Assembly (NCBI GenBank): GCA_964453185.1
Contig: CAYVNN010000004.1
Location: 128,706-192,705 of the forward strand
From: an uncultured Methanosarcinales archaeon
GTDB lineage: Archaea > Nanobdellota > Nanobdellia > Woesearchaeales > DSVV01
Length of the DNA stretch: 64,000 bases
Reading direction: 5' to 3'
Position 1 is the stretch's first letter. Each line of letters begins with the position of its first letter. The translations under genes and the position numbers were made by a program. A model generated the notes under the pieces. It worked only from the letters and a program-made list of their open reading frames with translations. It was not told the DNA's origin and did no database searches. Positions 18,102-43,454 of the stretch are shown here, in pieces.

Positions 18102-19367
18102 TTGTTTTTGTTTGTTATGGTATCATTAAGTTTGTGTATTATTGCTAAGAATGAAGAAGATTTTATTCAAAGTTGTATAAGTTGTGTTAAAGACATGATT
18201 GATGAGGTTATTCTTGTAGATACTGGAAGTATTGATAAAACAAAGGAAAAAGCAAGACAAATATGTTCTGATGTTAAGATATTTGATTTTGAATGGTGTG
18301 ATGACTTTGCAGCTGCTAAAAATTTTGCAATTAGAAAAGCAACTTCTGATTGGATTTTTGTTTTAGATGCAGATGAAGTTGTTGAAAAACAAGATATTGA
18401 GAAGATTAAGGAAATAATTCAAGATACATCTTATGTTGCGTTTGCATTTACGTCAAGACATTATACAACAGAAAAGATACATGCAAACTGGCATATGATT
18501 AAAAATGCTGAGAGAAAAGATTTTATGCAAGGTTTTTTAGGGTATTACGATGTTAATCATATTACTCGTTTATTTTTGAATGATGAAAATCTTTATTTTC
18601 AAGGAAAGGTACATGAAGATATTAATCCTTCTATTTTTGAATATGATAAAAAAGTTGGAAATAAAAAGTGTAAGGTTTTAAAGATCCCTATTCATCATCT
18701 TCATATTAAGAAGAAAGGAAGTTTTATTGATGGAAAACAGAAATATTATTATAAACTGTCTAAGGAAAAATTACAAGAACATCCTGATTCAAAGATTGCA
18801 TTAGATGTTGCGGTGGGTTCTGTTTTATTTGATAATGATGTTGAATCTTCTTTAAATTATCTTGTTAAGGTTCTTGAGATTGATGGGGTTGATGGTGTTC
18901 TTGTTGAGAAGATAATTAAGTTAATTGATGGTGGGGATTTTATTAATGCATTACGTTTAGTTTTTGATAATTTTGTTTTTAAAAAACATGACTTAAATTC
19001 TGTTTTAAATCTAGCAAAATCATTGAATAGAATTAATAAAGTAAAAGAAGCATTAGTTGTTTTGAAAAGAATTTATATGTTGAATCCACAGAACACAATT
19101 GTTCTTGAATATTTGGGTGTATGTTTATCAAGAATGGGTAAAATAAAAGAATCTATTATTGTTTTTGAAAGAGCATTAGAATTAGAATCTTTTGATAAAA
19201 AGAAAGCAATGTTTTGTTTTAATCTAGGAGCTCTTTATGAGAAGGTAAATGAACTGAATAGATCTATTAATTATTATGAAAAAGCAATTAATTTTGGTTT
19301 TAAGAATGGGGACCAATTAAAAGGAAGAATTAATTTATTAAGATTGGAATTAAGTAAGAAAGGTTAA
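18102..19367 (+). CDS. Glycosyltransferase family 2 domain fused to C-terminal TPR repeats
   Basis: N-terminal SLSLCIIAKNEEDFIQSCISCVKDMIDEVILVDTGSIDKT (GT2 DxD-type fold). C-terminal TPR-like helical repeats (…ALELESFDKKKAMFCFNLGALYEKVNELNRSINYYEKAI). Confidence 0.65.
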   Translation: MFLFVMVSLSLCIIAKNEEDFIQSCISCVKDMIDEVILVDTGSIDKTKEKARQICSDVKIFDFEWCDDFAAAKNFAIRKATSDWIFVLDADEVVEKQDIEKIKEIIQDTSYVAFAFTSRHYTTEKIHANWHMIKNAERKDFMQGFLGYYDVNHITRLFLNDENLYFQGKVHEDINPSIFEYDKKVGNKKCKVLKIPIHHLHIKKKGSFIDGKQKYYYKLSKEKLQEHPDSKIALDVAVGSVLFDNDVESSLNYLVKVLEIDGVDGVLVEKIIKLIDGGDFINALRLVFDNFVFKKHDLNSVLNLAKSLNRINKVKEALVVLKRIYMLNPQNTIVLEYLGVCLSRMGKIKESIIVFERALELESFDKKKAMFCFNLGALYEKVNELNRSINYYEKAINFGFKNGDQLKGRINLLRLELSKKG

Positions 19368-19405
19368 TATTAGTTTATTTTCGCAATACTTATAAATAAA
19401 TACTT

Positions 19406-20085
19406 TTGATATATTTATGTGGTGTTTTTCTGGTGGTTAATGTAGGTAAAGTAGAGGATATTGAGTTAAATTGTAAGACTGCTTATTTAGCAGGAGTTAT
19501 TATTGGCGATGGTCATATATCTAATTCAACTAAGTCAAAGTTAGATTTATTAAGGATTATAAAATTGTTATTGATATTGCAGATAAAAATTTTCTTTATT
19601 GTCTTTATAATATGATTAAAACTATGATTTTAACTAAAAGTATTCCAAGACCAACAAAAATTAGAGGAAATCGAAAAGAACGGTGGTGTTTTCAGTTTAG
19701 AAACAAATCATTTTACTTTTTCCTTACTGGATACTTAGGGATAATAGCTGGCTCAAAAAGTTCATTTGTTAGAATGCCTTTGAAAATTAAAAATGCAAAT
19801 ATTAGGTTAAAAAAATATTTCTTAGCAGGATTATTTGATACTGATGGTGGTTTTAGAGGTAATTCTCTTGGATTTACAACTGCAAGTAAAGACTTAAATA
19901 AGGATGTTCATGATTTATTGGATGAATTATTAATCAGACATAGTCTTGATAAATGGGAAAATAAAAAATATGGAAAATTTTATTATGGGATTAGAATTGC
20001 TAAGTCTGAAATAGATAATTTTTTAAATAAGGTGCCTATACAAAACAAAGAAAAGTTGAAAAGAATCCGTTCCAGATTCCCTTGA
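19406..20085 (+). pseudogene. LAGLIDADG homing endonuclease (two LAGLIDADG motifs) interrupted by a frameshift
   Basis: Motif 1 YLAGVIIGDGHI is in frame 2 (19406-19615). Motif 2 FLAGLFDTDGGF is in frame 1 (19612-20085). The frame change lies near the A5 run at about 19584. The stop TGA (20083-85) overlaps position 1-2 of the downstream tRNA. Confidence 0.55.
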
Positions 20086-20294
20086 GGGGGTGCCGGAGTG
20101 GTCAAACGGGACAGATATTTTTATTTCAACTTTTTAGAATAAAATTAGTTTAAGCTTAGGCCACTTCACTGGTGTAAAGAGTTTACAGCTGTGATTGGAA
20201 GACACCTGTTGGCTTAGTGCCTACTAGGGTTCAAACATGCTCACTAGCGTTTGGAGCTTCCAACGTTAGGGCGTTGAAAGTCCCTACCCCCTCA
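20084..20294 (+). tRNA. Intron-containing class II tRNA, probably tRNA-Leu (A73), with a T-loop (59/60-60/61) intron and a large anticodon-region intron
   Basis: Acceptor GAGGGGG/CCCCCUC with A73. Class II D-arm UGCCGGAGUGGUCAAACGG. Variable-arm hairpin GGCUUAGUGCC. T-arm UAGGG-UUCAAA[45-nt intron]U-CCCUA. A T-run follows. Anticodon not resolved by eye; CUUAG loops are present. Confidence 0.5.
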
Positions 20295-20463
20295 TTTTTG
20301 ATTTCTTATTATGATTATGTGTTATATGTGGTATCTTTATATAATTTATATCTTTATTATAATAAATTATGTTAATCACTATTGGGGGGTATCGTAGTTA
20401 AACATGAGAATTCTGACCGTATGCTTCTTCTCGTGGTTTTTGTGTTTTTTAAGTATCTCTTCT

Positions 20464-20727: not shown

Positions 20728-23199
20728 ATGCGAGTAAATAAAACAATTAAGAAGATTGCTTCTGTAGGAGTAGCAGTCGGAATGGTTGGCGCAACCTTAA
20801 TGGGAGCGGCAATGGCAGCAGACCTCAGCGAATACCCGTATATGTTTATCGAAGACGGAAACTTTAATGGGTTATTGGTAGTAGGAGCTGATGCAAGAGC
20901 AGAAGATATTATTGGAATAACTAATATCGCAACAAGCTTACAGACAGTATCTGTTAAAACAACAGTAGTTAGTTCTGGTGCAGGAAGCAGTTCAGATAGA
21001 GTGACTGTGACTGATGGAGTAGAACTATGTGATAGAGATCTATTTGTAGGTCAAGCAATCTCTGGTTGTGAAGCAAGTGTCGATGATGCAGAATTACCTG
21101 ATTTATTAGGTGATGATATTTATCATGACGCAGAAGGAGATAATGACAATGATGAAAGGTATACACAAGAAGTCTTGTTCCAAACAAACGTAACAGGTGT
21201 TTTTAAGTTTGATCAAGATGACGATGATGCACCAGTTGCAGATACATATGTCTTCATAGACGACTCAAATGCTTACTTCTATAATTATACATTGAAGTTT
21301 GATGATAGAGCAGACTATGATAATACATCTTCAACAACTGCAGCAGACGATATTGAAGGAACAACACTAACTATTCAAGGAAGAGAATACACAATTACAG
21401 ATGTTAAGGTTTCATCAGGTCAGTTATCTGAAATTGAGATGCAGGCTGGAGAAACAGTTGTCTGGATGAGTGAAGGAGAAACAGTTGATAGAACAGTTGA
21501 TGGTGTAAGTCATTCAATTGAAATGATTGACGTTACAGGCGATGCAACAGAAAGCACAGGTTCATGTGGTTTCAAAATTGATGGAACAACAGCATGGATT
21601 GATGTTGATGATACAGACACAATAAATGGTGTTACAATTGGTGTTATCGATGCAAAAGCTGTTAATATTGAAGCACAAGACCAGGATGTATGTAAGGTTG
21701 TAATCGGAGCTCATGAAATTAAGTTAGTTGATACAGACGAACTTGAAATTAATGATGAAGATGTAGATGGAACATACTGTGAAATTTCAGAAAAAACAAC
21801 AGCATCTGAAGGAAGATGGAGTGGATTTAGTATTTCATTTGCCCCAGACTTAGATGAAGTATATTTAGGACCTGGAGATGAGTATATTGATCCAATCTTA
21901 GGAAACTTCAAATTTGTATTTGGTGGAGTTAACACAGGCGGAATTGAAACCTTTGAATGGGTAACAGGCAGTACAAGCGGTTATCTAAGATTCTCTAATG
22001 AGGATGGAAGAGAAGTTGAAATTCCACTATGTGCAGATGAAAATTCACCTGGATATGATAGTAGTGAAGCTTCAAATGAGCCAGTATATTTAGGTGACGA
22101 TGCTCCAACAACAAGTGACAATAATGAAGACAAAGCATTATATCTTGAAGGTGAAGTTTGTAGTGGAAGTAGTTCAGATGTTTCAAATTGTGTAGGTGCA
22201 ATGTTTTTAGTAATTACATCAACAACAAATGAAGCACACATAGTTGAAATTACAAACATTGATACAAATGACAACCAAATGGACTTTAGAGACTTAACAT
22301 ATGGAACAGAAGACAAAGATTTGGACTATACAAATGGAACAGATATGGGCTTTGCTTTAAGTGGTGGTGTTGGTACCATTAACTTGTCAGTTGATGAATC
22401 AGCAGGAATCATTAATTTTACAAGTACTGGAACAGCATCTGGTGCAACAATTGAAACACTTGAAGAAGCATCATTGGCTATTTTGAACTCAGATCTTGTT
22501 AACCAAACATATGAAGGATGGAACTTCTCTGAAGGAAATGATGGTGACATCAATGTATATCTATCTGATTATACTGTATATGCAGTCTATGATGATTCAG
22601 ATGATAGTACCATTGAATTCAATCATACAACATTGAGTACAACAGATGGATATGGTTGGGCAGATGAAAGTTCTGACAATGATGACTTTGTAAAGTTCTA
22701 TACATTGAAAGGTTCTTTGATTACATATGACCAAGAAGACAAACAAAGTTTAGTAATTGAACATCCACACGATGCAGTATATGCAGAAGTGTATATAGCT
22801 CCAACAGATGCTGATACACTTGAAGTTGCAGATGAAGGCGCTGTAAGTGAAGAAGTTCAAAAGATCAGTGTTAATGCAGTTAAGCTGGACTCCGAAGTAA
22901 CAAGTGTTACAGATAAAAACATTGTTGCAGTAGGTGGACCATGTGCTAACTCAGTTGTTGCTGAATTAATGGGCAACCCAGCTGAATGTGAAACATCACT
23001 AGGCATTAGCAGTGGACAAGCTTTGATTAAGTTGTACGAAAACGGTGACTATGTAGCAGTTGTTATTGCAGGTCAAGACGCTATGGATACCAGATTAGCA
23101 TGTCAGATTATGTCTAACTGGGATGACTACAGCTTGACAGGCGACGAAATGGTTGCAACCACAGTTAGTGAAAGCAGCTTAAGCGTAACAGCTCAATAG
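20728..23199 (+). CDS. S-layer-like major surface (glyco)protein
   Basis: Signal peptide MRVNKTIKKIASVGVAVGMVGATLMGAAMAADL. Very acidic, Thr/Ser/Asn-rich 823-aa protein. The C-terminal …IVAVGGPCANSVVAELMGNP… resembles the methanogen S-layer C-terminal domain. Locally higher GC and a strong SD suggest high expression. Confidence 0.6.
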   Translation: MRVNKTIKKIASVGVAVGMVGATLMGAAMAADLSEYPYMFIEDGNFNGLLVVGADARAEDIIGITNIATSLQTVSVKTTVVSSGAGSSSDRVTVTDGVELCDRDLFVGQAISGCEASVDDAELPDLLGDDIYHDAEGDNDNDERYTQEVLFQTNVTGVFKFDQDDDDAPVADTYVFIDDSNAYFYNYTLKFDDRADYDNTSSTTAADDIEGTTLTIQGREYTITDVKVSSGQLSEIEMQAGETVVWMSEGETVDRTVDGVSHSIEMIDVTGDATESTGSCGFKIDGTTAWIDVDDTDTINGVTIGVIDAKAVNIEAQDQDVCKVVIGAHEIKLVDTDELEINDEDVDGTYCEISEKTTASEGRWSGFSISFAPDLDEVYLGPGDEYIDPILGNFKFVFGGVNTGGIETFEWVTGSTSGYLRFSNEDGREVEIPLCADENSPGYDSSEASNEPVYLGDDAPTTSDNNEDKALYLEGEVCSGSSSDVSNCVGAMFLVITSTTNEAHIVEITNIDTNDNQMDFRDLTYGTEDKDLDYTNGTDMGFALSGGVGTINLSVDESAGIINFTSTGTASGATIETLEEASLAILNSDLVNQTYEGWNFSEGNDGDINVYLSDYTVYAVYDDSDDSTIEFNHTTLSTTDGYGWADESSDNDDFVKFYTLKGSLITYDQEDKQSLVIEHPHDAVYAEVYIAPTDADTLEVADEGAVSEEVQKISVNAVKLDSEVTSVTDKNIVAVGGPCANSVVAELMGNPAECETSLGISSGQALIKLYENGDYVAVVIAGQDAMDTRLACQIMSNWDDYSLTGDEMVATTVSESSLSVTAQ

Positions 23200-32542: not shown

Positions 32543-32678
32543 GGGCCTGTAGCTTAGTCTGGTTGGAGCGCTGGTCTTATATGGCTTCGTTTCATACAAG
32601 AAATTGGCTCTGAGTGAGCCAGTGGTCGTGAGAGGTCATCTTTTAGATGATTCACGAATTCAAATCTCATCAGGCCCA
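32543..32678 (+). tRNA. tRNA-Ile (UAU) with two introns (37/38, 35 nt; 53/54, 26 nt)
   Basis: GGGCCUG-UA-GCUU-AGUCUGGUUG-GAGC-G-CUGGU-CUUAUA[35 nt]A-GCCAG-UGGUC-GUGAG[26 nt]UUCAAAU-CUCAU-CAGGCCC-A. All helices pair. An oligo-T follows. Confidence 0.65.
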
Positions 32679-43313: not shown

Positions 43314-43454
43314 GGGCCGTTAGCTCAGCCTGGTACTTTGTAAGTATTCAAAGCTTTATCGGCAGGAAAGAGCACTGCACTTTTAACAAAGACTGGAACT
43401 TTCAACCAGTTGAAAGTGATGCAGGTGTCGCGAGTTCGAATCTCGTACGGCCCA
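43314..43454 (+). tRNA. tRNA-Lys (UUU) with two introns (D-loop ~34 nt; anticodon 37/38 33 nt)
   Basis: GGGCCGU-UA-GCUC-AGCCUGGUA[intron]-GAGC-A-CUGCA-CUUUUA[ACAAAGACUGGAACUUUCAACCAGUUGAAAGUG]A-UGCAG-GUGUC-GCGAG-UUCGAAU-CUCGU-ACGGCCC-A. Confidence 0.65.

What the first reader, a model, noticed from the sequence alone, without database searches (positions are those of the whole stretch)
19406..20294. Frameshifted LAGLIDADG homing endonuclease gene abutting a multi-intron tRNA-Leu
A free-standing double-motif LAGLIDADG ORF (YLAGVIIGDGHI and FLAGLFDTDGGF) is split across two frames near an A5 run. Its stop codon overlaps nucleotides 1-2 of a 211-nt intron-bearing class II tRNA. Homing endonucleases next to, or inside, intron-rich RNA genes suggest the mobility machinery that spreads introns. 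The element may be a decaying invader, or it may be expressed through programmed frameshifting.
Basis: seen in the sequence. Interest (0 to 1): 0.65.

Follow-up and report, generated by a model that had tools for sequence, protein, structure and literature searches.

The report
Decaying homing endonuclease gene abutting tRNA-Leu
A recently broken copy of a selfish DNA-cutting gene sits directly against a three-intron leucine tRNA gene, and it belongs to a large, apparently undescribed family in DPANN archaea that always lodges at the start of this same tRNA gene.

Summary
Window 19433-20085 encodes a two-motif, I-DmoI-like LAGLIDADG endonuclease split over two frames. Its TGA stop overlaps nt 1-2 of a 211-nt gene (20084-20294). 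Removing three bulge-helix-bulge introns (tRNA positions 30/31, 37/38, 59/60) from that gene gives an 84-nt tRNA-Leu(UAG). The frameshift is a 1-nt deletion at 19550-19552, not at the A5 run. It recurs in two other metagenome assemblies.

In 40 of 42 relatives from DPANN genomes, the endonuclease gene (HEG below) abuts or reads into tRNA-Leu(UAG). 39 of the 42 are single-frame, and the three other disrupted copies break at different places. This argues for a pseudogene, not programmed frameshifting.

The family behaves like a mobile homing endonuclease gene:
- About 8% of tRNA-Leu(UAG) loci are occupied.
- The catalytic Asp residues are invariant, and dN/dS is about 0.1.
- Some copies are pseudogenes, and one is a C-terminal remnant.
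- The gene sits where the tRNA start lies relative to the promoter in empty loci, and some loci keep a displaced tRNA 5' fragment upstream.

A sister family abuts tRNA-Thr(GGU). Occupied alleles nearly always carry the 30/31 intron (45/48 against 15/88). This is suggestive of intron spread, but unproven.

The parts
19390..19402 (+). TATA-like box (TTATAAATAAATA) 31-43 nt upstream of the GTG start of the endonuclease gene. Inferred promoter.
   Evidence: Read from the sequence. In relatives, TATA-like octamers lie 20-45 nt upstream of the HEG start. In HEG-less loci the same kind of box lies 25-29 nt upstream of tRNA +1. Function is inferred, not shown.
19433..19552 (+). N-terminal part of the LAGLIDADG gene in frame 2. 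The start is GTG at 19433, with an alternative TTG at 19406. It contains motif 1 (YLAGVIIGDGHI, 19484-19519) with the catalytic Asp in GDG. After the deletion this frame runs out of register to a stop at 19613-19615.
   Evidence: JGI gene callers also start a 60-aa gene at the position equivalent to 19433.
19550..19552 (+). Site of the 1-nt deletion that splits the gene. The window reads TTA TT- AAG where relatives read AAA TCA AAA.
   Evidence: Protein alignment A1 and DNA alignment A2. The identical sequence occurs in L001 and L002, from two other JGI samples.
19553..20085 (+). C-terminal part of the LAGLIDADG gene in frame 1, called as a 157-aa ORF at 19612-20085. It contains motif 2 (FLAGLFDTDGGF, 19819-19854). 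The TGA stop at 20083-20085 overlaps tRNA nt 1-2.
   Evidence: Identical to P0001. The family profile scores it at E 1e-85.
20019..20029 (+). TTTTTTAAATA inside the ORF (codons for F-L-N), about 60 nt upstream of tRNA +1. It could be an internal promoter for the tRNA, or it could simply reflect codon usage.
   Evidence: TATA-like octamers occur 50-64 nt upstream of tRNA +1 in HEG+ loci, and none occur at 22-42 nt. Speculative.
20084..20294 (+). tRNA-Leu(UAG) gene, 211 nt. Exons are 20084-20114, 20154-20160 (anticodon TAG at 20157-20159), 20204-20235 and 20281-20294.
   Evidence: In-silico splicing gives an 84-nt tRNA-Leu(tag) accepted by ARAGORN. Stems covary across relatives. Orthologous genes follow the HEG in 40 of 42 related loci.
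20115..20153 (+). Intron 1 (39 nt) at tRNA position 30/31. It has a relaxed BHB: the central helix GGAC/GTTT has 2 Watson-Crick and 2 G-U pairs, and the bulges are AG|A and AA|G.
   Evidence: Relatives have GGAC/GTCC at the same place.
20161..20203 (+). Intron 2 (43 nt) at the canonical position 37/38. The central helix CTTA/GAAG pairs at 3 of 4 positions, and the bulges are GG|C and AC|A.
   Evidence: Relatives have TAAG, which pairs at all four positions.
20236..20280 (+). Intron 3 (45 nt) at position 59/60 in the T-loop. It has a strict hBHBh' motif: central helix TTCA/TGAA, the T-stem as the outer helix, and bulges AA|C and AG|T. Splicing restores the T-loop TTCAAAT.
   Evidence: The intron is absent from the closest relative L008, so it is a lineage-specific gain.
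20295..20299 (+). T5 run directly after the discriminator base. Likely an archaeal terminator.
   Evidence: Read from the sequence. Inferred.

Best explanation
Window 19433-20085 is a recently inactivated copy of a free-standing, single-chain (I-DmoI-type) LAGLIDADG homing endonuclease gene. A 1-nt deletion broke it. It belongs to a family whose fixed home in DPANN archaea is the 5' boundary of the tRNA-Leu(UAG) gene.

Shown:
- The gene is wedged between a TATA-like box and tRNA +1, at the place the tRNA start occupies relative to its promoter in unoccupied loci.
- In 36 of 42 loci the ORF only terminates inside the tRNA or its first intron.
- Occupancy of tRNA-Leu(UAG) loci is patchy.
- Intact copies are under purifying selection and keep both catalytic Asp residues.
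- Pseudogenes and one C-terminal remnant exist.
- Some occupied loci keep the original promoter plus tRNA nt 1 to 12-25 upstream of the inserted gene.

Inferred:
- The enzyme cuts HEG-less tRNA-Leu(UAG) genes somewhere 3' of about position 23. Double-strand-break repair then copies the HEG and the adjoining 5' part of the donor tRNA gene, with its introns, into the recipient.
- The gene is transcribed together with the tRNA, and 5' processing (RNase P or equivalent) releases the tRNA, so the insertion costs the host little.
- In this window the endonuclease is dead, while the tRNA, spliced by the host splicing endonuclease at three BHB motifs, remains functional.
For: Fold and motifs:
- Pfam LAGLIDADG_3 at E 1e-16.
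- The AF2 model has pLDDT 92.8 and matches I-DmoI with probability 1.00 and TM 0.62-0.78. The PDB profile search also finds I-DmoI, at E 1e-7.
- D26 and D138 are invariant in the alignment.

Family-wide architecture:
- 40 of 42 genome loci have tRNA-Leu(UAG) directly downstream.
- The stop codon lies inside the tRNA in 36 loci, overlaps +1 in 2, and lies upstream in 4.
- The C-terminal tails of database homologues are translated tRNA sequence.

Mobility signatures:
- Only 7 full copies and 1 remnant occur among 99 assessable tRNA-Leu(UAG) metagenome loci.
- HEG-less loci show L37e, then a TATA box at -25 to -29, then the tRNA. HEG+ loci show the TATA box, then the HEG, then the tRNA.
- A before/after pair shares the flanking gene and promoter: L108/L110 (empty) against L015/L017/L021 (occupied).
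- 5' tRNA remnants occur in 9/48 HEG+ loci against 4/104 HEG- loci (p = 0.004).
- In L009 the remnant differs from the functional tRNA copy.
- A different LAGLIDADG ORF occupies the same site in L090.
- A sister family abuts tRNA-Thr(GGU).
- dN/dS is 0.09-0.17 for close pairs.

Pseudogene status here:
- The 1-nt deletion is reproduced in two other assemblies.
- 39 of 42 relatives are intact, and the other breaks lie at different sites.
Against: - No cleavage activity or target site has been demonstrated.
- Strong purifying selection and conserved synteny (LSM-L37e upstream in 22 loci) would also fit a vertically inherited, host-useful gene.
- No close relative was found on viral contigs, so no transfer vector is evident.
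- How an occupied allele escapes self-cleavage is unknown. tRNA nt 1-30 are intact in occupied alleles, and the Thr family has no introns that could interrupt a target.
- HEG-less loci appear to start tRNA transcription at about +1, so occupied loci need a 5'-processing activity that has not been verified here.
Confidence: 0.7

Rival explanations
1. Collaborative or hitch-hiking homing. The endonuclease recognises the uninterrupted anticodon arm of tRNA-Leu(UAG). The 30/31 and 37/38 introns split that site, which protects the carrier allele. Alternatively, the introns simply lie within the co-conversion tract. In either case the HEG drives the spread of BHB introns.
For: - 46 of 48 HEG+ genes have an intron in the anticodon arm, and 45 of 48 have the 30/31 intron. 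Among HEG- genes the figures are 45/88 and 15/88 (p = 2.7e-8).
- Within the metagenome set alone the 30/31 intron occurs in 5/7 HEG+ loci against 15/91 HEG- loci (p = 0.0036).
- Restricted to HEG- loci with L37e synteny it occurs in 6/28 (p = 8e-11 against HEG+).
- The strict tie to the UAG isoacceptor points to recognition of the anticodon region.
- The 5' remnants never extend beyond tRNA nt 25.
Against: - Relatedness of the loci is not controlled.
- The scan pattern capped intron 1 at 30 nt, which under-counts it among HEG- loci.
- The HEG-less relatives L108 and L110 already carry the same two introns.
- L037 and L107 have the HEG and no intron.
- The sister family abuts intron-less tRNA-Thr genes.
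Confidence: 0.2
2. A domesticated LAGLIDADG protein serves the host. It could be a maturase or chaperone for the oddly placed introns of pre-tRNA-Leu, or a WhiA-like DNA-binding regulator of the tRNA gene. It would be inherited vertically with the tRNA.
For: - dN/dS is about 0.1.
- 39 of 42 copies are intact.
- Synteny is conserved.
- There is tight linkage and obligatory co-transcription with an intron-rich tRNA.
- The model also resembles the bI3 maturase and WhiA.
Against: - Both catalytic Asp residues are invariant.
- Only about 8% of tRNA-Leu(UAG) loci have the gene.
- 15 HEG-less loci carry the 30/31 intron, so splicing does not need the protein.
- In this window the gene is broken while all three introns persist.
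- Remnants and displaced tRNA fragments indicate insertions.
- The Thr family accompanies intron-less tRNAs.
Confidence: 0.07
3. The gene is intact in vivo. Either the frame change is a sequencing or assembly error, or it is bypassed by programmed -1 frameshifting.
For: - The rest of the ORF has no further stops and keeps all invariant residues.
- The two frames overlap by about 80 nt.
Against: - The missing base is not in a homopolymer.
- The same sequence was assembled from at least two further samples, and the 157-aa product is recorded on 11 contigs.
- There is no X XXY YYZ slippery motif at 19541-19556.
- 39 of 42 homologues are single-frame, and the other three breaks are elsewhere.
Confidence: 0.03

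Closest known systems
I-DmoI (Desulfurococcus mobilis 23S rRNA intron endonuclease) and archaeal intein endonucleases such as PI-PfuI
   Same: It is a monomeric two-domain LAGLIDADG fold with one catalytic acidic residue per motif, and I-DmoI is the best sequence and structure match. Both are of archaeal origin. Both are associated with genes that carry BHB introns.
   Different: I-DmoI is encoded inside a BHB intron and inserts at the intron site. This gene is free-standing, lies wholly upstream of the RNA gene, and uses the tRNA's 5' boundary rather than an intron or intein as its harmless location. Sequence identity is only about 20%.
Phage T4 SegB and other free-standing phage homing endonucleases (Seg, Mob). 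SegB biology is cited from own knowledge, from the abstract of PMC13096335 as listed, and from the abstract of PMC2790892 for MobE.
   Same: These are free-standing endonuclease genes placed between genes, next to tRNA genes in the case of SegB. They spread by double-strand-break repair together with flanking DNA (co-conversion).
   Different: They belong to the GIY-YIG or HNH families and live in phage genomes. They do not physically overlap a specific tRNA, and no family-wide pairing of one enzyme with one tRNA is known. Here the setting is cellular archaeal chromosomes and the enzyme is a LAGLIDADG type.
Collaborative homing of F-CphI and the psbA group I intron in cyanophages (own knowledge: Zeng, Bonocora and Shub 2009)
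   Same: A free-standing endonuclease gene lies adjacent to an intron-containing gene, and the intron could interrupt the enzyme's target. This is a possible model for the association between the HEG and the 30/31 intron.
   Different: The introns here are protein-spliced BHB introns, not ribozymes. The target site is unknown, and protection by the intron has not been shown.
Multi-intron and otherwise disrupted tRNA genes of Thermoproteales and DPANN archaea (PMC5829648, PMC4090602, PMC3239211)
   Same: The tRNA has three short introns at canonical and non-canonical positions with strict or relaxed BHB motifs. DPANN lineages are reported to have increased tRNA gene disruption and splicing endonucleases with a specific loop.
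   Different: The papers found do not link any endonuclease gene to such tRNAs.
Integrative elements that target tRNA genes and carry a tRNA fragment that restores the gene (own knowledge)
   Same: A displaced, decaying copy of part of the tRNA is left beside the insertion, while the incoming DNA supplies a working copy.
   Different: Those elements use integrases and usually duplicate the 3' part of the tRNA. Here the 5' part is duplicated, the insert is a single endonuclease gene of about 0.7 kb, and no integrase is present.

Membership tests
LAGLIDADG homing endonuclease, single-chain type | Two LAGLIDADG motifs, each ending in a catalytic acidic residue | tested here: met
   YLAGVIIGDG and FLAGLFDTDG are both present. 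D26 and D138 are invariant in 17 sequences.
LAGLIDADG homing endonuclease, single-chain type | Profile match above the curated threshold | tested here: met
   PF14528 scores 61.4 bits against a cut-off of 22.5. PF05204 scores 29.2 against 21.1.
LAGLIDADG homing endonuclease, single-chain type | Two alpha-beta-beta-alpha-beta-beta-alpha domains forming a DNA-binding saddle | tested here: met
   The AF2 model has pLDDT 92.8. Foldseek matches I-DmoI at E 2e-10 with TM up to 0.78.
LAGLIDADG homing endonuclease, single-chain type | Site-specific DNA cleavage of an allele that lacks the gene | not testable with these tools
   This needs the enzyme and substrates. Only indirect signs are available, namely empty and occupied alleles and displaced tRNA fragments.
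LAGLIDADG homing endonuclease, single-chain type | Presence/absence polymorphism at one fixed genomic site | tested here: met
   Of 99 tRNA-Leu(UAG) loci, 7 are occupied and 1 holds a remnant. The empty loci have the same flanks.
Functional gene (this copy) | One uninterrupted reading frame | tested here: not met
   A 1-nt deletion at 19550-19552 breaks the frame. It is reproduced in L001 and L002.
Intron-encoded homing endonuclease | The ORF lies inside an intron of the host gene | tested here: not met
   The ORF ends at tRNA nt 2. The three introns are 39-45 nt long and hold no ORF.
Archaeal BHB-intron tRNA | A cloverleaf with an anticodon after intron removal | tested here: met
   ARAGORN calls an 84-nt tRNA-Leu(tag).
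Archaeal BHB-intron tRNA | Two 3-nt bulges separated by a 4-bp helix at each pair of splice sites | tested here: met
   The motif is strict at 59/60. At 30/31 the central helix has 2 G-U pairs, and at 37/38 it pairs at 3 of 4 positions, so both are relaxed.
Archaeal BHB-intron tRNA | Compensatory changes in the stems across relatives | tested here: met
   11 of 15 pairs show changes on both sides, and no shuffle out of 500 reaches the observed values. The acceptor and T pairing were partly used to find the 3' ends.
Archaeal BHB-intron tRNA | A mature spliced RNA is observed | not testable with these tools
   No RNA data are available.
Programmed ribosomal frameshift gene | The frameshift and a slippery site are conserved in homologues | tested here: not met
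   39 of 42 homologues are single-frame. The three other breaks are at different positions. There is no slippery heptamer.
Collaborative homing (free-standing HE plus protective intron) | The enzyme's target spans the intron insertion site and the intron blocks cleavage | not testable with these tools
   Only a statistical association is available, and there are counter-examples.

The most novel reading that the evidence does not exclude
These tRNA-boundary LAGLIDADG genes are the missing mobility engine for archaeal BHB tRNA introns. The enzyme cuts HEG-less tRNA-Leu(UAG) genes in or near the anticodon arm. Repair then copies the endonuclease gene and the neighbouring 30/31 and 37/38 introns together. 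The introns spread either by hitch-hiking in the co-conversion tract or because they protect the carrier allele. This would explain intron gain in DPANN tRNAs. More broadly, the 5' leader of a tRNA gene would be a third kind of phenotypically neutral home for homing endonuclease genes, alongside introns and inteins, with RNase P processing taking the place of splicing.
Probability: 0.22. Interest if true: 0.85.

Novelty: new variant of a known kind. Interest (0 to 1): 0.62.

Why it matters
Homing endonuclease genes are known to survive inside introns and inteins, which make their insertion harmless, or as free-standing genes in phages. Here a large archaeal family instead sits exactly at the 5' boundary of one particular tRNA gene, where removal of the tRNA leader would make the insertion harmless. 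A sister family does the same at tRNA-Thr(GGU).

This gives three things:
- A new and easily testable set of LAGLIDADG enzymes whose targets are probably conserved tRNA gene sequences.
- An explanation for why gene callers in DPANN genomes predict proteins with tails made of translated tRNA.
- A concrete, testable link between a DNA endonuclease and the unexplained gain of protein-spliced tRNA introns in archaea.

The copy in this window is itself an ordinary decaying member of the family.

Tried and rejected
- Standard tRNA detection fails on the unspliced gene. ARAGORN and the Rfam tRNA model miss it, even at E up to 10. Manual splicing plus comparative evidence was needed.
- I considered direct repeats of the tRNA 3' end downstream of the gene as footprints of the endonuclease. 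I rejected this because they are equally frequent without the HEG (17/100 against 5/40).
- I looked for HEG remnants in HEG-less loci that carry the 30/31 intron. Only L147, which lacks that intron, has a clear C-terminal remnant.
- I looked for a viral vector. IMG/VR holds only distant LAGLIDADG relatives (36% identity or less, partial matches).
- I looked for a second copy of the family in the window and found none.
- I looked for the window's taxon name through the protein cluster, but no name is on record.
- I rejected programmed frameshifting and a homopolymer error.
- I tested the idea that the HEG might lie in a 5'-proximal intron with an upstream exon. I rejected it because the acceptor stem is complete within 20084-20294.
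- Five literature searches found no description of this arrangement.
Full report
**1. What is in the window**

The window is AT-rich (about 30% G+C). It carries archaeal markers (LSM, ribosomal protein L37e and an S-layer protein). Every close homologue of the ORF under study comes from Woesearchaeota, Nanoarchaeota or Pacearchaeota MAGs, so the organism is a DPANN archaeon.

Between a glycosyltransferase-TPR gene (18102-19367) and an S-layer gene (20728-23199) lie two overlapping ORFs. One runs from 19406/19433 to 19615 in frame 2. The other runs from 19612 to 20085 in frame 1. Joined, they give a 217-aa protein with both LAGLIDADG motifs. It matches Pfam LAGLIDADG_3 at 61.4 bits against a cut-off of 22.5. 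The AlphaFold model has pLDDT 92.8 and superposes on I-DmoI with Foldseek probability 1.00 and TM 0.62-0.78. A profile search of the PDB also puts I-DmoI first, followed by intein endonucleases.

**2. The frameshift**

Protein and DNA alignments with relatives place a single missing base at 19550-19552. The window reads GAT TTA TT- AAG GAT TAT, where relatives read GAT AAA TCA AAA GAT TAT.

- The 1100 nt around the site are identical in contigs from two other JGI samples (L001, L002). The 157-aa product is on record from 11 contigs.
- No intact allele closer than 65% identity exists in the protein collection.
- Of 42 related genome loci, 39 have one open frame. The three other disrupted copies (L034, L039, L044) break at different positions.
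- There is no slippery heptamer at the site.
- All residues that are invariant in the family are retained, and there are no further stops.

The copy is therefore a young pseudogene. It is neither an assembly error nor a programmed frameshift.

**3. The tRNA**

Neither ARAGORN nor Rfam sees a tRNA at 20084-20294. Removing three segments yields an 84-nt class II tRNA-Leu(UAG) that ARAGORN accepts.

Splice sites were placed by the bulge-helix-bulge rule, in which a 4-bp central helix is followed on each strand by a 3-nt bulge that is cut after its second base. The introns are:

| Intron | Coordinates | tRNA position | Central helix | Motif |
|---|---|---|---|---|
| 1 | 20115-20153 | 30/31 | GGAC/GTTT | relaxed (2 G-U pairs) |
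| 2 | 20161-20203 | 37/38 (canonical) | CTTA/GAAG | relaxed (3 of 4 paired) |
| 3 | 20236-20280 | 59/60 | TTCA/TGAA | strict; the T-stem is the outer helix |

Splicing intron 3 restores the usual T-loop TTCAAAT. Across 28 distinct related loci the acceptor, D and T stems are 100% paired, with changes on both sides in 11 of 15 pairs. The acceptor and T pairing helped locate the 3' ends, but the D-stem did not.

Two more intron-bearing tRNAs lie in the window. DPANN lineages are reported to have increased tRNA gene disruption (PMC5829648).

**4. The abutment is a family trait**

The protein search returned about 100 homologues of roughly 230 aa at 40-65% identity. Many end in GVPEWSNG, RGCRSGQTG or GDAGVAKRDRF. 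These are the three reading frames of a tRNA-Leu 5' half.

- In 40 of 42 related loci from GTDB species genomes, the ORF is followed at once by a tRNA-Leu(UAG) gene. Of the other two, one is cut by a contig end. The other (L041, Micrarchaeota) has tRNA-Leu(UAG) 51 nt downstream on the other strand.
- The conserved C-terminal Phe codon lies mostly 1-5 nt from tRNA +1.
- The stop codon lies inside the tRNA or intron 1 in 36 loci, overlaps +1 in 2 loci (including the window), and lies upstream in 4. The mRNA must therefore run into the tRNA gene.
- Distant LAGLIDADG relatives in Thermococci and Anaerolineae have no tRNA nearby.

**5. It behaves as a mobile element**

A scan of metagenome contigs for the tRNA-Leu(UAG) D-arm-to-anticodon pattern gave 120 loci. 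Of the 99 with enough upstream sequence, 7 have the gene. One (L147) has only a C-terminal remnant of about 45 codons.

Promoter and flanks:
- Many empty loci have L37e ending 30-120 nt upstream of the tRNA. A TATA-like box sits 25-29 nt before tRNA +1.
- Occupied loci have no such box at that distance from the tRNA. Instead they have one 20-45 nt before the HEG start.
- LSM-L37e lies upstream in 22 occupied loci.
- The gene therefore sits between the promoter and tRNA +1.

Before/after pair:
- L108 and L110 (empty) share the upstream gene and the TTTTTAAAG promoter with L015, L017 and L021 (occupied).
- In the occupied loci the promoter is followed by tRNA nt 1 to 16-23, then about 45 nt with a second TATA box, then the HEG, then a complete tRNA.

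Displaced 5' fragments:
- Such fragments always start at nt 1 and end by nt 12-25. They occur in 9 of 48 occupied loci and 4 of 104 empty loci (p = 0.004).
- In L009 the fragment differs at three positions from the working tRNA copy, as expected if the working 5' part came in with the gene.

Other signs:
- Close pairs of intact genes give dN/dS of 0.09-0.17.
- A different LAGLIDADG ORF occupies the same place in L090.
- No close relative was found on viral contigs.

**6. A sister family**

LAGLIDADG genes at 27-30% identity to the Leu family abut tRNA-Thr(GGU) in L045, L046 and L058. They have the same layout of TATA box, ORF and tRNA, and L058 is a pseudogene. The protein collection holds at least 84 clusters of this family. 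Many have tails that are translated tRNA, such as ASVAQLVER and VVGSIPTRGS. These tRNA-Thr genes have no introns. L050 and L064 show further LAGLIDADG ORFs abutting intron-bearing tRNAs on the opposite strand.

**7. Mechanism**

Shown: the architecture, the patchy occupancy, the selection, the decay products and the displaced fragments.

Inferred:
- The enzyme cuts empty tRNA-Leu(UAG) genes 3' of about nt 23.
- Repair copies the gene and the adjoining donor tRNA segment into the recipient.
- The HEG and tRNA share a transcript, and 5' processing frees the tRNA, which keeps the insertion nearly neutral.

How occupied alleles avoid being cut themselves is unknown.

**8. Introns**

Occupied tRNA-Leu(UAG) genes have the 30/31 intron in 45 of 48 cases and any anticodon-arm intron in 46 of 48. 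Empty genes have them in 15 of 88 and 45 of 88 cases. Within the metagenome set alone the 30/31 intron occurs in 5 of 7 occupied loci against 15 of 91 empty loci (p = 0.0036).

This fits either hitch-hiking of the introns in the co-conversion tract or protection of the target by the intron. Four points stop me from claiming either:
- The loci are related, and this is not controlled.
- Empty relatives with the same introns exist.
- The Thr family needs no intron.

**9. Comparison and novelty**

The closest known enzyme is I-DmoI, but that gene lives inside a BHB intron. The closest known lifestyle is that of free-standing phage endonucleases such as T4 SegB in a tRNA cluster, and collaborative homing of F-CphI with the psbA intron (own knowledge; see also the abstracts listed).

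Five full-text searches found nothing on LAGLIDADG genes at tRNA boundaries in DPANN archaea. I therefore rate the family as a new variant of a known kind, and the window copy as a decaying member of it.

Noticed in passing
window 32543-32678 (+) and 43314-43454 (+): Two more intron-bearing tRNA genes, found by Rfam but not by ARAGORN. The second has an insertion in the D-loop as well as later ones. No LAGLIDADG ORF lies next to either.
   Followed up: partly
L082-L201 (HEG-less tRNA-Leu(UAG) loci), 70 nt upstream of tRNA +1: TATA-like octamers peak sharply 25-29 nt upstream of tRNA +1, so transcription would start at about the first tRNA base. Such leaderless tRNA transcripts are known from Nanoarchaeum equitans (own knowledge). 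HEG insertion would convert such a gene into one that needs 5' processing.
   Followed up: partly
L045 3001-3667, L046 1542-2196, L058 3001-3654; proteins P0104-P0186: A sister LAGLIDADG family (27-30% identity, at least 84 protein clusters) abuts tRNA-Thr(GGU) in the same way. Many database proteins of this family have C-terminal tails that are translated tRNA, and some read through the whole tRNA.
   Followed up: partly
L090, about 900 nt upstream of its tRNA-Leu(UAG): A different 296-aa LAGLIDADG_3 ORF, not detected by the family profile, occupies the same position and also reads into tRNA-Leu(UAG).
   Followed up: partly
for example L008 (about 100 nt after the tRNA end), L007, L016, L024, L025, L028, L034 and 17 HEG-less loci: Direct repeats of the last 12-34 nt of the tRNA lie 45-200 nt downstream, and some enclose a hairpin. 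They are equally frequent with and without the HEG, so they are probably small insertions or integration scars at the tRNA 3' end.
   Followed up: partly
L005 and L014, 140-280 nt upstream of the HEG: The displaced tRNA 5' fragments are themselves interrupted by 37-38 nt flanked by 6-nt repeats (GCCGGA and CCGGAG). The origin of these interruptions is unexplained.
   Followed up: no
window 20019-20029 and the equivalent place in all HEG+ loci: The conserved codons F-L-N/K give TTTTTAAAT 50-64 nt upstream of tRNA +1. This could double as an internal tRNA promoter or as a T-run terminator, or it could be mere codon usage.
   Followed up: no
window 18102-19367; L004, L008, L039: A glycosyltransferase-TPR gene lies between L37e and the HEG only in the window and its three closest relatives. 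Elsewhere L37e is directly upstream. This suggests vertical inheritance of the occupied locus within this small clade.
   Followed up: partly
L041 3001-3831 (Micrarchaeota MAG): A 42%-identical family member lies next to tRNA-Leu(UAG) in convergent orientation, 51 nt from the tRNA 3' end. The tie to this tRNA therefore survives a change of geometry.
   Followed up: no
window 20059-20083: A short hairpin (GAATC...GATTC) lies in the last 25 nt of the ORF, directly before tRNA +1. It is only partly conserved in relatives.
   Followed up: no
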